Source: a virus
DNA length: 64,000 bases
Virus record (IMG/VR): IMGVR_UViG_3300001200_000009
Strand: one strand, 5' to 3'
The notes under the pieces were generated by a model. It was given only the letters and a program-made list of their open reading frames with translations. It ran no database searches and was not told where the DNA came from. The position numbers were made by a program, and so were the translations under genes. Of this stretch, positions 2,463-47,962 are shown piece after piece. Each line of letters begins with the position of its first letter. The first letter of the stretch is position 1.

Positions 2463-2618
2463 TGGTAGGGCTGGCAAGGATTCTAACCTCCGTCCTCTAC
2501 AAGATACATTCTAGCTTATTCAAATAGTGGTTTTGGTGGTCTCCGGAAACTCCAACAACATATAGGCTTCTACTAGAGGTAGGGCTCATAGCGCTCTAAC
2601 TGACTGAGCTACAGCCCC
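2463..2618 (-). ncRNA. 156-nt tRNA-like RNA with enlarged anticodon domain
   Basis: GGGGCTG/CAGCCCT-ACCA, D arm GCTC/GAGC, T-loop TTAGAAT, CCTCTA/TAGAGG enclosing about 70 nt. Confidence 0.6.
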
Positions 2619-9028: not shown

Positions 9029-9121
9029 TGGCATATCAGGCTGGAATCGAACCAGCAAAGAGATTAACTCATGAGTACTCGGGCCCAGTCTCATTGAACT
9101 TACCATTAGTTCAACTGATAT
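9029..9121 (-). ncRNA. 93-nt atypical tRNA-like RNA, anticodon not assignable
   Basis: ATATCAG/CTGATAT-GCCA, D arm GAAC/GTTC, T arm GCTGG-TTCGATT-CCAGC; irregular anticodon arm. Confidence 0.6.
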
Positions 9122-30949: not shown

Positions 30950-31258
30950 TTAAAGAAAATCTTCCAATTTAGCTTCGGAATTACCTTCATGCCAAGCCCA
31001 AAACAATTTATATTTTGCATTGGAGCGATTAGCCATTCGTTCTCCGTCAAGATTTTCAGCAGTACTTGAAAAGAAAATTAAAGCCGCTAAAACATCGGCA
31101 ACTTCTTCTTCTTCAATACCAGCTTTAAGGCTACGGTTTCCCCAATAATCATATGACCCTTTTGTCATAGTAAGTTTAGACAACTCTACACCAAGCTCAT
31201 TCATTTCTTCTTGAAGCTTGGCTAGGCCAGGAAATTTATCATCGCCAATAGCAAACAT
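30950..31258 (-). CDS. MazG-like NTP pyrophosphohydrolase
   Basis: KLQEEMNEL, EEEVADV. Confidence 0.75.
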   Translation of the reverse strand: MFAIGDDKFPGLAKLQEEMNELGVELSKLTMTKGSYDYWGNRSLKAGIEEEEVADVLAALIFFSSTAENLDGERMANRSNAKYKLFWAWHEGNSEAKLEDFL

Positions 31259-32379
31259 TAGACTGCGGTAACTTCTTTAGCGTATTTTGCGACTTGAGCA
31301 GAGATGATTTTAGAAGCCTTTTTCCAATCGACACCAAGCTCTTCGATGTCGTTGACACCTTCCTTCTTAATGTCTTGAAGCATCCAAACAACCAGTTGTC
31401 CAATTTGCTTGCGCTCAAGTTCTCCGCCATTCGTGAGCTCGTGGACACCTTGCTCAAGTCGAGGAGTAGTAACATATGCATTTGCGAAATCCTTGTCTAC
31501 CTTATTTGGAGGGTCGTATTTCTTCGGCATCTTAGACTTGTTCACGACAGCATGCTCTTCGGTCTTTGCTTTGAACATGAATTTTGAGGACTGACCAAGA
31601 AGTGTCAGAGTACCGGAAGCTTTAACGACTTGAACACCATAGAAGACCAGACCTTCTCCACAACCTTCGACACCAAATTTCTCTTTGATATAAGGGTCGC
31701 ATTTGCCAATAGGTTTAATGCGCTCGATGATGAGGTCAGTTGCCTCTGCTGCTTGGTCATTGTCAGTCCAATCGACTGTTAAGCCTTGAGTCCCGTACCA
31801 TGGAAGAACATTCATTCGCGCAGGAAAGGAAATGACCTCATTGCCACGGAGAGACAGCATTGCGGTGATAAAGTCTGGGTCGATAATCCACTGGAATTCG
31901 TTGTAGACCCCACCAATGATAGGAGACTGAGGATGAGGGTCGGCAGCCATCATACCACGACAGCCGAAGATAAAGAATTGTTTCTCAGGAATGGATGAAA
32001 CTGCATCCGATTTCTGAATTCCAGGACCAGCCCACTCGCCGTAGACATAGAAATCCGCAACGTCAGTAGCATATTGAGCCAGCCCAGCAAAGAATTCTTC
32101 GTTTGCTTTGACCCACAGTTCAAATCCGAAGTGACTAGACCCTTCGAGAGGGACATCGCTTTTTCGTTTTTGTGCAACCACAGTACCGTCTTTGGAGATA
32201 CGGACACACGCATTGGTACCATGCAGCTTGATTTTAGCCATGAAAGAAACTGGACCGACTTCCCATTTCATTCGGTCTACCGATTTTCGAGTGTCTCGAA
32301 TTTGACCTACCGATGGAAAGGCAAGAAAGCCCTTTGGTCTAAAGTTTTTTGGCGCTGTGCCGTCTTTGGTTTCAACCAT
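31258..32379 (-). CDS. RNA ligase, Rnl2-like family
   Basis: KIKLHGTN, YGEWAG, EGLVF, FKAK. Confidence 0.8.
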   Translation of the reverse strand: MVETKDGTAPKNFRPKGFLAFPSVGQIRDTRKSVDRMKWEVGPVSFMAKIKLHGTNACVRISKDGTVVAQKRKSDVPLEGSSHFGFELWVKANEEFFAGLAQYATDVADFYVYGEWAGPGIQKSDAVSSIPEKQFFIFGCRGMMAADPHPQSPIIGGVYNEFQWIIDPDFITAMLSLRGNEVISFPARMNVLPWYGTQGLTVDWTDNDQAAEATDLIIERIKPIGKCDPYIKEKFGVEGCGEGLVFYGVQVVKASGTLTLLGQSSKFMFKAKTEEHAVVNKSKMPKKYDPPNKVDKDFANAYVTTPRLEQGVHELTNGGELERKQIGQLVVWMLQDIKKEGVNDIEELGVDWKKASKIISAQVAKYAKEVTAV

Positions 32380-46248: not shown

Positions 46249-46342
46249 TGGCGGAACCGGAGAGATTCGAACTCTCATACCTCTAGGGCCTACTGTTTTC
46301 AAGACAGCTGCCGTTACCCAGAATCTTTCGGCTTACGGTTCC
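46249..46342 (-). tRNA. tRNA-Ser(TGA)
   Basis: GCTGT-CTTGAAA-ACAGT, long variable arm. Confidence 0.9.
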
Positions 46343-46616
46343 TTGATTTATATGTTGGTAGTTGACTATCACAGTTGCTACAAACGAATCTTAAATTGTT
46401 TAGTCTATTATCATTATTGATTCCATTTATATGGTCTAAAATGAGCGGCATTTTCATACCTCTCCATATAGGTCCCAAATTACATATAGCACATTCATAC
46501 ACGATAAGCGCTTGCTTTATAATTCTTTCCTTTAATCGATGACGAGGATAAGTGCTTTCTGCGACAAAAACCTCTTCATCTGTTTTTCTAGCTCCATATT
46601 GATTTACCTTTTTCAT
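46314..46616 (-). CDS. HNH endonuclease (start MKKVNQ)
   Basis: CAIC, LILDHING..NLRFVCSNC; TATAAATA and AGGAG upstream. Confidence 0.85.
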   Translation of the reverse strand: MKKVNQYGARKTDEEVFVAESTYPRHRLKERIIKQALIVYECAICNLGPIWRGMKMPLILDHINGINNDNRLNNLRFVCSNCDSQLPTYKSRNRKPKDSG

Positions 46617-46866
46617 ATAACGTCTCCTTAGATTCGTTATATTTATAGGAAGCGGTTTCTGGTACCGCTTCCGCAAAGACATCAGTATTGGTTAGTGCTG
46701 TGAAGGGTTGCCCTCCGCTGTCGCAACACTACGACTTTGCATAAGGACCTACACGGTCCTCGGACTTATATTATTCACGATGTAAAAATAGCGGTTAGAG
46801 GTTAATAAAAAAGCGACTTAGAGATGACTCTAGCCGCACGAAATGAGATATGCAATAGAGTCTACA

Positions 46867-46957
46867 TGGTATGGAAGCCCGAATCGAACGCACGCGGGTC
46901 AGTTCCTGTGGCTGGTGACCACGAACTAAAGACTGTATGTGACGTTACGTTTTGCAT
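46867..46957 (-). ncRNA. Degenerate CCA-ending tRNA-like RNA behind a late promoter
   Basis: TATAAATA 46964-46971; TTCGATT loop; TTCCAT-ACCA end; terminator at about 46807-46836. Confidence 0.4.
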
Positions 46958-47173
46958 TACTTTTATTTATACTCCGTTTCTGGACAATTCCAAATTATTT
47001 TAACTCAACCTCGTGGATATGTAAATCCTCTTGGCTGTTGAACTCATATGCTTCGAAGGCCTCTTTAGCCTCTTCACGAGACTTATAGACCCCAAGTATT
47101 TCGTTAGGACCTGAAAGCTGGTCATAATGGTTGACCATTTGTGCAACAAAAACTTTCATGTCCATCTCCAATT

Positions 47174-47445
47174 TGGTGGGCGGTGTCAGATTCGAACTGA
47201 CCGCTCTAGAAGCCGTCGTACCTGCGTTAACGGACCATCCCATAATTTAAGTGAGGGGCCATTCAGAGCAAACTCTTCGTGGGTCCTAGACCGTAGCCGT
47301 TTGGCCGGAATTTCTTCCGATTACCTCTATTTCTTTTAGGGGAAGTTAAAGCTCCGGGAGACCCATGATGTGCCTATGCATTCGAGGTTTTACGTTTTCG
47401 CTACCCTGCTACCGAGTCGACGGATTCAAGATAATCTGACCGCCT
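47174..47445 (-). ncRNA. tRNA-Leu(CAG)-like halves separated by a 190-nt structured insert
   Basis: AGGCGGT/ACCGCCC-ACCA, D stem GATT/AATC, GTCG/CGAC, T arm GTCAG-TTCGAAT-CTGAC; joining gives CT-CAG-GT. Confidence 0.55.
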
Positions 47446-47666
47446 CTTATTACTTTAACTTCGCCTAAAAGAAACATATGAGTAAAAGCTCAAAGTTAAC
47501 GATAACCAATCGAAGCTTATTCTCGGGATGGTTAATCCCTACCTTAGCTCTCTGAAACTTTACTAATATGTTTCCTTTATTCTCTATTAGTATAAACTAT
47601 TGAGAATGCTTTGTAAACAAAAAAATCACCACAAAGTGAAAAAGTTTTGTGGTGATTGAATTTAGC

Positions 47667-47762
47667 GAGACAAATCCTAAAGCTGGAGCTTTAATATGTG
47701 GGCATCGAGTTTGACGTCGTAGCCCACGGACGTGTTAGAAGTAAGCGTTTAGATAGCGTCTC
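47667..47762 (-). ncRNA. GCUAU/GAUUU motif RNA, copy C
   Basis: GAGAC/GTCTC, GCTAT/GATTT loop, CTAAA/TTTAG, CGCTTACTTCTA. Confidence 0.7.
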
Positions 47763-47770
47763 TATGGGGG

Positions 47771-47962
47771 TTATGAACAGGTCTTTACAGTCCCGTCAGG
47801 ATTATACATTACGCTAGCTCCATTACGAAACTGAACGTACTTGACGCCTTCAACGCAGTGATATGATTCACCAGTTACGCTAGCATCGATTGAAGCTCCT
47901 ACACCGCAACCAGATAATAGCAATGCTGAGCCAATCATGGCCGCTGTTAGTAATTTTTTCAT
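47771..47962 (-). CDS. Small lipoprotein
   Basis: Lipobox LSGC. Confidence 0.7.
   Translation of the reverse strand: MKKLLTAAMIGSALLLSGCGVGASIDASVTGESYHCVEGVKYVQFRNGASVMYNPDGTVKTCS

What the first reader, a model, noticed from the sequence alone, without database searches (positions are those of the whole stretch)
47174..47590. About 400-nt RNA: structured leader, split tRNA-Leu(CAG)-like halves, 190-nt insert and a 22-bp switch helix
Seen: removing 47225-47414 (5' exon ends in U, insert ends in G, as in group I introns) gives a class II cloverleaf with loop CU-CAG-GU and A73, which is Leu-like. However, it has A1:C72, C8 and no D-loop GG. The insert has helices in P3/P4/P5/P6/P8-like order (TGGGTC/GACCCA, CCGGAG/TTCCGG, CTTCC/GGAAG, GCC/GGC, AGAG/CTCT), but I could not find a canonical P7 G-binding site. 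A 21/22 inverted repeat (47330-47351 vs 47453-47474) lets the upstream leader invade the insert. The leader itself forms a long hairpin (GAAACATAT/ATATGTTTC) after an early promoter (47613-47618). Inference: a divergent or regulated self-splicing intron, or a new large tRNA-capped ncRNA.
Basis: partly seen in the sequence, partly recalled or inferred. Interest (0 to 1): 0.72.

Follow-up and report, generated by a model that had tools for sequence, protein, structure and literature searches.

The report
Phage tRNA-ended RNA with gating leader
An uncultured T4-like phage makes a roughly 410-base RNA: a rod-shaped leader followed by a 272-base RNA whose two ends close like a tRNA. It is neither a tRNA interrupted by a self-splicing intron nor a tmRNA, and its function is unknown.

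Summary
- an early-type promoter (47618-47589);
- a 140-nt leader that folds into a long rod;
- a 21/22 helix between leader and core;
- a 272-nt RNA (47445-47174) whose ends close into a tRNA-like acceptor/T arm with an encoded ACCA.

The intron reading is not supported. The Rfam group I model finds nothing here, and no P7 turned up. The proposed cloverleaf is 8.5 kcal/mol worse than a tmRNA-style fold, in which parts of the 'D arm' and 'variable arm' and the 'anticodon stem' merge into one 14-bp (12/14) helix.

It is not a tmRNA either. It has G3:C70 rather than G3.U70, no credible tag and no model hit. The phage also carries a true permuted tmRNA elsewhere.

One ~90% identical fragment from a marine metagenome keeps most of the leader and the start of the core nearly unchanged. 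The 5' tRNA-like strand changes heavily: the 'D stem' is lost, while three covarying pairs keep a local hairpin that sequesters the acceptor 5' strand.

Best reading: a tRNA-ended structured ncRNA with alternative folds gated by its leader. Only one lineage is known, and there are no expression data.

The parts
47589..47618 (-). Early-type promoter: -35 GTTTACA (47618-47612), 17-nt spacer, -10 TATACT (47594-47589). The start site is inferred near 47582-47585.
   Evidence: One of 26 sites on the minus strand. It is nearly identical to the promoter in front of tRNA-Arg at window 42024.
47619..47657 (-). Intrinsic terminator of the upstream unit: a 12-bp perfect stem followed by seven U. It makes the finding a separate transcription unit.
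   Evidence: repeat I5.
47446..47585 (-). 140-nt leader that folds into a long imperfect rod.
   Evidence: -39.5 kcal/mol, z = -4.9; plus strand only -27.2. Positions 47444-47527 are identical in the marine relative.
47550..47579 (-). 5' arm of the leader rod.
   Evidence: repeat I1 (30-nt arms, 80% complementary).
47466..47495 (-). 3' arm of the leader rod. It shares 47466-47474 with strand A.
   Evidence: repeats I1 and I2.
47525..47539 (-). Apical hairpin of the leader (GGGAU-UAACC-AUCCC).
   Evidence: In the relative, one pair changes on both sides (A:U to G:C) and two single changes give A.C on this strand.
47453..47474 (-). Strand A of the 22-bp long-range helix. It lies in the leader, 7 nt before the tRNA-like 5' end.
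   Evidence: Unchanged in the relative.
47330..47351 (-). Strand A', the partner of strand A, in the middle of the core RNA.
   Evidence: 21/22 complementary, with one CxC.
47174..47445 (-). 272-nt core RNA with tRNA-like ends.
47439..47445 (-). Acceptor 5' strand AGGCGGU (A1 faces C72).
47174..47184 (-). Acceptor 3' strand ACCGCCC, discriminator A (47177) and encoded CCA (47176-47174).
47185..47201 (-). Canonical T arm: a 5-bp stem with G53:C61 and the loop UUCGAAU.
47418..47431 (-). 5' strand of the 14-bp P2-like helix.
   Evidence: repeat I4 (12/14); fold -78.6 against -70.1 kcal/mol for the cloverleaf.
47205..47218 (-). 3' strand of the P2-like helix.
47419..47444 (-). Alternative local hairpin H5: GGCGG (47444-47440) pairs with CCGUC (47423-47419) and sequesters the acceptor 5' strand.
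   Evidence: the 5' half alone folds this way, -8.0 kcal/mol; the relative has GCUGG/CCAGU, so three pairs change and pairing is kept.
47219..47417 (-). 199-nt internal domain. It holds a conserved 5' segment (47416-47373), a 9-bp long-range helix (47368-47360 / 47285-47277), strand A', a GAAA-tetraloop hairpin (47319-47306), a small hairpin (47305-47296), an AGAG/CUCU hairpin (47276-47265) and a hairpin at 47260-47232.
   Evidence: (repeat I12). The relative has only one listed change between 47372 and 47417.
46995..47165 (-). 56-aa DUF7336 gene. Its GGAG Shine-Dalgarno sequence starts 4 nt after the CCA and its ATG 8 nt after it. It is in the same transcription unit.
46314..46682 (-). HNH homing-endonuclease-like gene, next in the unit.
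   Evidence: phrog_10822, E = 7.7e-28.
46249..46342 (-). Class II tRNA-Ser(UGA)-like gene with an oversized D loop, then tRNA-Asp, Ser and Ala. ARAGORN and Rfam at the gathering score both miss it.
   Evidence: It visibly matches L007:3637-3729, by eye and not by alignment.

Best explanation
The locus encodes a stable, tRNA-ended structured non-coding RNA. It is the first product of an early transcription unit that continues into two small genes and a tRNA cluster.

Shown by the sequence:
- A strong early promoter starts a transcript of about 410 nt.
- Its first 140 nt form a rod-like hairpin.
- The last 272 nt close end to end through a 6-bp acceptor stem (plus A1.C72), a 14-bp P2-type helix and a canonical T arm, and end in an encoded ACCA.
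- So the RNA has the layout of a tmRNA or a 'tRNA scaffold': an acceptor/T minihelix with a ~200-nt multi-hairpin domain in place of the anticodon arm.

Inferred:
- The minihelix serves as a maturation and stability module. RNase P would cut at the 5' end, and the CCA end and T loop would be handled like those of a tRNA.
- The internal domain is the working part.

Three helices compete for the same strands:
- the base of the leader rod against the 22-bp leader-core helix (they share 9 nt);
- the local hairpin H5 against the acceptor stem and inner P2.

From this I infer an ordered or gated folding path. Rod and H5 form first during transcription. When strand A' appears, it can invade the base of the rod from a 13-nt toehold and build a nearly continuous 43-bp duplex. 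That is long enough for a double-strand-specific nuclease such as host RNase III. The tRNA-like closure would form once the leader is removed, or alongside the helix as a pseudoknot.

The cellular target of the internal domain is unknown. Whether the RNA is aminoacylated is also unknown. Its discriminator is A73, but G3.U70 and the D-loop GG are missing and position 1 is mismatched.
For: Promoter family and strand.
Terminator just upstream.
Leader stability and strand asymmetry.
22-bp helix. It is part of the minimum-energy fold of the full transcript (-121.1 kcal/mol, against -103.6 when the tRNA-like closure is enforced).
Closure of the ends: expected 0.0014 times by chance.
Fold with the P2 helix: -78.6 kcal/mol, within 3.3 of the unconstrained minimum and 8.5 better than the cloverleaf.
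ARAGORN reads the same tRNA-domain layout once its threshold is relaxed.
Encoded CCA: most of this phage's tRNA genes encode it too.
Relative in a marine metagenome: 47444-47527 are identical and only one change is listed in 47372-47417. There are 6 substitutions and 7 deleted bases in 47418-47443. Hairpin H5 is kept through changes at three pairs. G.U pairs in H5 fit the minus strand only.
A second RNA of the same phage (2618-2463) also has tRNA-like ends, an inserted domain and an internal 9-nt copy of its own 3' acceptor strand.
Against: There are no expression or processing data.
The only relative covers the leader and the 5' quarter of the core. The acceptor stem, P2 and the 22-bp helix therefore have no comparative support.
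The one helix with covariation (H5) competes with the tRNA-like closure.
The 272-nt RNA alone is not more stable than its shuffles (z = -1.0), and its unconstrained minimum-energy fold disrupts the T arm.
Two single changes in the apical leader hairpin give A.C mismatches on the minus strand.
The sharp boundaries of conservation could reflect mosaic exchange near a homing endonuclease gene rather than selection on the RNA.
The phage encodes no RNase III of its own.
Confidence: 0.5

Rival explanations
1. A class II tRNA (Leu-CAG-like) interrupted between positions 33 and 34 by a ~190-nt intron. The intron would be self-splicing (a degenerate group I) or removed by proteins, and splicing would be controlled by the leader.
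For: A U precedes the proposed 5' junction and a G ends the insert. A cloverleaf with loop CU-CAG-GU, a variable arm and A73 can be drawn. No tRNA-Leu was found in the genome by the default scan. The phage has an Rnl2-type RNA ligase.
Against: Intron_gpI gives no hit at the locus at E <= 10. Published screens pick up bacterial tRNA group I introns at 18-20 bits with this model (bioRxiv 10.1101/2020.01.27.920355).
No P7 turned up, and P1 is only about 3 bp.
ARAGORN rejects the spliced product at a 70% threshold.
The cloverleaf needs A1xC72, C8, no GG and A31xA39, and it is 8.5 kcal/mol worse than the P2 fold.
The relative deletes the D stem.
The genome has no RtcB.
Confidence: 0.08
2. A second, divergent one-piece tmRNA that rescues ribosomes with an unusual tag or amino acid.
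For: It has the tRNA-like domain plus a long P2 helix. With its threshold at 80%, ARAGORN calls a tmRNA at exactly 47174-47445, with the tag GRNSGQTATV.
Against: The pair is G3:C70, not G3.U70.
The proposed tag lies inside a GAAA-tetraloop hairpin and lacks a hydrophobic Ala-rich end.
I found no convincing PK1.
None of the Rfam tmRNA models hits the locus at E <= 10.
The phage already has a permuted tmRNA scoring 76 bits, with an alphaproteobacterial-type tag.
Confidence: 0.07
3. The conserved leader rod is the functional RNA: an early sRNA, or an RNase III processing and stability element for the tRNA operon, like the leader of the T4 tRNA cluster. The tRNA-like part would then be a decayed tRNA or minihelix kept only as a processing signal that frees the downstream mRNA and tRNAs.
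For: The leader is the best conserved and the most stable part. A related contig has the same type of promoter, followed by a 215-nt leader (the leader-plus-tRNA-like stretch is highly structured, z = -5.4) placed directly in front of a tRNA-like gene. The Shine-Dalgarno sequence of the next gene starts 4 nt after the CCA. RNase III processing of the T4 tRNA leader is recalled from memory (Pragai and Apirion 1981) and was not checked here.
Against: It does not explain why a 199-nt internal domain is kept, with its start conserved in the relative, nor why the leader is 21/22 complementary to the centre of that domain.
Confidence: 0.2
4. The 22-bp inverted repeat acts in DNA, as a protein-binding palindrome, a recombination site or a remnant of a mobile insertion, and the RNA pairing is incidental.
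For: It is a near-perfect 22-bp inverted repeat 101 bp apart, close to an HNH endonuclease gene.
Against: No other copy occurs in the window or genome. I saw no target-site duplication. One arm lies in a transcribed, conserved leader, and the segment between the arms carries one half of a helix set whose other half lies outside. The only database match to the 22-mer is an isolated 39-nt stretch in an unrelated contig, consistent with chance.
Confidence: 0.05

Closest known systems
tmRNA (SsrA): tRNA-like domain plus P2 helix plus internal domain
   Same: The two ends form a 7-position acceptor stem and a canonical T arm with CCA. There is no D stem or anticodon loop in the favoured fold. A long irregular helix leads into a large internal domain. 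The size (272 nt) is in the range of small tmRNAs.
   Different: G3:C70 instead of the alanine determinant G3.U70; A1.C72; no credible resume codon, tag or pseudoknot ring; no covariance-model match. The same genome has a real two-piece tmRNA.
Bacterial tRNA genes with group I introns in the anticodon loop (cyanobacterial tRNA-Leu, Azoarcus tRNA-Ile, Agrobacterium tRNA-Arg)
   Same: tRNA-like halves are separated by about 190 nt. U lies before and G at the end of the proposed insert.
   Different: No catalytic core (P7, and the P3-P8 and P4-P6 architecture) is detectable. The exons do not make an acceptable tRNA. The insert starts after position 33.
YrlA / bacterial and phage Y RNAs (Rfam RF02553), tRNA mimics bound by Ro60
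   Different: In YrlA the ends lie in the Ro-binding stem and the tRNA-like part is internal. Here the ends are the acceptor stem with CCA. There is no RF02553 hit at E <= 10 in 46900-47900, and I did not see the GCUAU/GAUUU handle.
Leader of the phage T4 tRNA cluster, and T4 stable RNAs C and D
   Same: It is early transcribed, sits at the head of a tRNA cluster in a T4-like phage, and has a structured leader that could be cut by RNase III. T4 also makes stable non-tRNA species from its tRNA region.
   Different: There is no sequence similarity. The T4 facts are from memory and were not checked here.
3' tRNA-like structures of plant RNA viruses (TYMV, BMV)
   Same: If the 22-bp helix and the tRNA-like closure coexist, the acceptor stem is formed across a pseudoknot at the 3' end of a longer RNA.
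   Different: This is a DNA phage and a separate small transcript. The likeness is only of topology.

Membership tests
Group I intron | Match to the catalytic-core covariance model (Rfam RF00028) | tested here: not met
   No hit at the locus at E <= 10, either in a 1-kb search or in the whole genome. The best hits in the genome, 9.9 and 8.1 bits, lie elsewhere.
Group I intron | P7 guanosine-binding helix between P3/P8 and the 3' end | tested here: not met
By inspection, no P7 pairing turned up.
Group I intron | U-1 in a G.U pair of P1, and a terminal G | tested here: inconclusive
   The U and the G are present, but only about 3 bp of P1 can be drawn.
Group I intron | Self-splicing with GTP and Mg2+ | not testable with these tools
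   No RNA runs were listed.
Intron-containing tRNA | Joined exons form a tRNA that tRNA finders accept | tested here: not met
I tested 728 junction combinations. The Rfam tRNA model gives no hit.
Intron-containing tRNA | D stem and D-loop GG conserved among relatives | tested here: not met
   There is no GG. The relative lacks 7 nt of this region, so no D stem can form.
tmRNA | tRNA-like domain: acceptor stem, T arm, CCA, no anticodon arm, P2 helix | tested here: met
tmRNA | G3.U70 alanine identity pair | tested here: not met
   G3:C70.
tmRNA | Resume codon and a tag reading frame with a proteolysis signal, preceded by PK1 | tested here: not met
   There is only a call at the 80% threshold, and its tag GRNSGQTATV lies inside a hairpin.
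tmRNA | Match to the tmRNA covariance models (RF00023, RF01849, RF04321 and relatives) | tested here: not met
   The same models find the true tmRNA of this genome.
YrlA / Y RNA | Match to RF02553 and a Ro-binding stem formed by the RNA ends | tested here: not met
   No hit at E <= 10 in the 1-kb search. The ends form an acceptor stem.

The most novel reading that the evidence does not exclude
This is a leader-gated, bistable tRNA mimic. The RNA switches between an open form, held by a 43-bp rod made of the leader and the centre of the core, and a closed form with a tRNA-like CCA end. Cleavage of the rod by a double-strand-specific nuclease would remove the leader and nick the core. That would give a two-piece tRNA-like RNA held together by the acceptor and P2 helices. 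This is a non-permuted route to the kind of two-piece architecture known from alphaproteobacterial tmRNA. A second RNA of the same phage also carries an internal copy of its own acceptor 3' strand, which hints that such acceptor decoys are a design principle of a family of phage tRNA-bodied RNAs.
Probability: 0.2. Interest if true: 0.75.

Novelty: new variant of a known kind. Interest (0 to 1): 0.5.

Why it matters
Phage tRNA clusters are usually read as sets of tRNAs. This locus, like several others in the same genome, shows that a T4-like phage also uses tRNA parts as end caps for larger structured RNAs of unknown function. These RNAs come from strong early promoters, so they would be present from the first minutes of infection.

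If the alternative folds are real, the RNA would be a natural case of a tRNA-like end being hidden and exposed by a built-in leader. That is relevant to how phages handle RNase P, RNase III, CCA-end surveillance and host defences that target tRNAs. It would also be a natural counterpart of the engineered 'tRNA scaffold' used to stabilise recombinant RNAs.

The immediate practical result is negative but useful: this locus should not be annotated as an intron-containing tRNA-Leu or as a tmRNA.

Tried and rejected
- Rfam at the gathering score over the whole window, and by E-value over 46900-47900: only chance-level hits (RAGATH-27 23.5 bits against a 76 cut-off, and others).
- Default ARAGORN, with and without its intron option: nothing at the locus.
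- Homologues by DNA: none in 50,697 phage records.
- Exact-pattern scans:
  - none in IMG/VR for the 3' 29-mer, the leader 22-mer or the core motif;
  - none in 185,579 species genomes for the core motif or the T-arm/acceptor end;
  - the JGI metagenome scan gave one isolated 39-nt match in an unrelated contig, which I take as chance.
- Homologues through neighbouring genes:
  - the 729-aa neighbour has no close relative in IMG/VR, and its best relative in the protein collection is 53% identical;
  - that relative's contig, L007, has no similar RNA by blastn or nhmmer;
  - the contexts of three more distant homologues show no comparable intergenic RNA, and for a fourth (P0003) no DNA could be read;
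  - the DUF7336 neighbour has no relatives at all;
  - UvsX finds one 5.5-kb IMG/VR fragment, and cultured phages are at most 42% identical.
- The second ARAGORN 'tmRNA' in the genome (C1:51026-51300) is not a paralogue. It shares only the 3' end of the true tmRNA and otherwise runs through what appears to be coding sequence.
- RNA-seq evidence: no RNA holder was listed in either run search.
- Phage-encoded RtcB, RNase III and CCA-adding enzyme: not found.

Full report
SETTING. The window is part of a 159,446-bp IMG/VR contig of an uncultured T4-like phage. Its source sample is an algal-culture metagenome. Its UvsX is at most 42% identical to that of any cultured phage. Almost all genes, 16 ARAGORN tRNAs and 26 copies of a GTTTAC[A/T]-N-TATAxT early-type promoter lie on the minus strand. 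The finding is therefore read on the minus strand, from 47618 down to 47174.

WHAT IS THERE.
- A perfect 12-bp stem followed by seven U (47657-47619) ends the upstream unit.
- A promoter follows directly: GTTTACA, 17 nt, TATACT (47618-47589). It is nearly identical to the promoter in front of tRNA-Arg at window 42024.
- The first ~140 nt of the transcript (47585-47446) fold into a long imperfect rod with arms 47579-47550 and 47495-47466. The fold is -39.5 kcal/mol, z = -4.9. The complementary strand gives only -27.2 kcal/mol, which fits a minus-strand RNA rich in G.U pairs.
- Then come 272 nt (47445-47174) that end in a canonical T arm, the strand ACCGCCC, A and CCA.
- Four nt after the CCA comes GGAG, and four nt after that the ATG of a 56-aa DUF7336 gene. 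An HNH endonuclease gene, a tRNA-Ser(UGA)-like gene and tRNA-Asp, Ser and Ala follow.

THE TWO ENDS CLOSE. AGGCGGU (47445-47439) pairs with ACCGCCC (47184-47178) at six of seven positions; A1 faces C72. Seven nt further on, 47431-47418 pairs with 47218-47205 at 12 of 14 positions (repeat I4), and that helix ends 3 nt before the T arm. An acceptor match followed at the right distance by such a helix is expected 0.0014 times by chance in the 481 nt upstream.

With this helix the 272-nt RNA folds at -78.6 kcal/mol, 3.3 above the unconstrained minimum. In the better fold, the 3' strand of the 'D stem' and the 5' strand of the 'variable arm' are the outer part of one helix. This is the layout of a tmRNA tRNA-like domain with P2. 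ARAGORN draws the same layout once its threshold is lowered to 80%.

NOT A GROUP I INTRON IN A tRNA.
RF00028 gives no match at the locus at E <= 10, either in a 1-kb search or over the whole genome, where the best hits (9.9 and 8.1 bits) lie elsewhere.
- A published screen recovers thousands of bacterial tRNA group I introns with this model at thresholds of 18-20 bits (bioRxiv 10.1101/2020.01.27.920355).
- No P7 turned up.
- The P4/P5-like pairs compete with a local GAAA-tetraloop hairpin (47319-47306).
- Only about 3 bp of P1 can be drawn.
- I joined every 5' end from 47430 to 47405 with every 3' start from 47240 to 47213. ARAGORN calls none of them a tRNA at thresholds of 90% or higher. Its calls at 85% use other junctions.

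NOT A tmRNA.
- The third pair is G:C, not G.U.
- The only tag ARAGORN proposes lies inside the tetraloop hairpin and has no typical end.
- No tmRNA model matches.
- The genome has a genuine permuted, alphaproteobacterial-type tmRNA at contig position 50746-51128, scoring 76 bits for tmRNA_permuted and 60.9 for alpha_tmRNA. Its tag contains ANDNFA.
- The two RNAs are not paralogues.

THE LEADER-CORE HELIX. Positions 47474-47453 in the leader and 47351-47330 in the centre of the core are 21/22 complementary. Nothing similar occurs elsewhere in the window or genome, nor in shuffles. The leader strand shares 9 nt (47474-47466) with the 3' arm of the rod.
- In the full transcript the minimum-energy fold uses this helix (-121.1 kcal/mol). 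Enforcing the tRNA-like closure costs 17.5 kcal/mol in a nested model.
- If the helix displaces the base of the rod, one strand (47495-47453) is paired over 43 consecutive positions, first with the 5' arm of the leader and then with the core.
- This is a plausible substrate for a double-strand-specific nuclease. That step is inference. The phage has no RNase III of its own, so a host enzyme would be needed.
- The helix and the closure could also coexist as a pseudoknot. I could not evaluate that.

THE ONE RELATIVE. Contigs of a marine metagenome run include a 219-nt piece covering 47372-47595 at about 90% identity and low depth.
- Positions 47444-47527 are identical.
- Only one change is listed in 47372-47417.
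- The stretch 47418-47443 has 6 substitutions and 7 deleted bases.
- Rebuilt from the listed differences, the relative's 5' end begins AGCUGGA, then ACGAAAGAA forms a loop, then comes CCAGUC. The four-pair 'D stem' cannot form.
- In both phages the acceptor 5' strand can pair with the segment that follows the loop: GGCGG/CCGUC here and GCUGG/CCAGU in the relative. Three of the five pairs differ and all stay paired, with G.U pairs that work only on the minus strand.
- The 5' half of each RNA folds this way when taken alone.

So the only helix with comparative support is a local hairpin (H5) that hides the acceptor 5' strand. The closure itself has statistical and thermodynamic support, but no comparative support yet. 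In the apical leader hairpin, one pair changes on both sides and two single changes give A.C on the minus strand. This is mixed evidence, and it rests on a single contig of low depth.

CONTEXT.
- A contig whose 729-aa homologue is 53% identical (L007) has the same type of promoter. A 215-nt leader follows (leader plus tRNA-like gene fold with z = -5.4), and then directly the tRNA-Ser(UGA)-like gene and tRNA-Asp.
- In this window the tRNA-Ser(UGA)-like gene lies at 46342-46249.
- Compared with that contig, the 272-nt RNA, the DUF7336 gene and the HNH gene look like an added block. I did not test this further.
It is a second case of an 'acceptor decoy' in a tRNA-ended RNA.

VERDICT. The intron reading is not supported. 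I read the locus as a tRNA-ended structured RNA whose fold is gated by its leader, with confidence 0.5. The function of the internal domain, the processing steps and any charging remain unknown. The evidence comes from one lineage and includes no RNA data.

Noticed in passing
Outside the window: contig position 50746-51128, minus strand (L004:746-1128): The phage encodes a genuine circularly permuted (two-piece, alphaproteobacterial-type) tmRNA: Rfam tmRNA_permuted 76 bits and alpha_tmRNA 60.9 bits. Its tag contains ANDNFA. This points to an alphaproteobacterial host.
   Followed up: partly
window 46249-46342, minus strand: A class II tRNA-Ser(UGA)-like gene with a 17-nt D loop, G73 and an encoded CCA. 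ARAGORN and Rfam at the gathering score both miss it. It visibly matches L007:3637-3729 (by eye, not aligned) and sits just before tRNA-Asp in both phages. The end of the HNH gene overlaps its 5' end.
   Followed up: partly
window 2463-2618, minus strand: A 156-nt RNA with tRNA-like ends and about 90 nt in place of the anticodon arm. AGCCCUACC occurs both right after the D arm and at the 3' end, so the acceptor 5' strand has two possible partners. The finding shows the same logic with hairpin H5.
   Followed up: partly
window 9029-9121, minus strand: A 93-nt tRNA-like gene with a perfect 7-bp acceptor stem, a T arm and CCA, lying between tRNA-Ile and tRNA-Met. ARAGORN calls it tRNA-Leu(GAG) only when a 7-nt 'intron' is allowed.
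   Followed up: no
window 46314-46682, minus strand: A free-standing HNH homing-endonuclease-like gene (phrog_10822, E = 7.7e-28) inside the RNA/tRNA operon. It may explain mosaic boundaries of conservation around the finding.
   Followed up: no
whole genome, minus strand: There are 26 GTTTAC[A/T]-N-TATAxT promoters on the minus strand and 1 on the plus strand. A subclass with AATAGTATATACT precedes RNA genes (window 2326, 3454, 42024, 47618, 63269).
   Followed up: partly
L007:3418-3740: In the related contig, the tRNA-Ser-like gene is clamped by about 9 extra pairs between its 5' leader and its 3' trailer, including the CCA. A 215-nt leader precedes it, and the leader-plus-tRNA-like stretch is highly structured.
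   Followed up: no
window 31258-32379, minus strand (contig position 106033-106317): An Rnl2-type RNA ligase domain (PF09414, 38.5 bits) in a 376-aa open frame. No RtcB, RNase III or CCA-adding enzyme was found in the contig.
   Followed up: no
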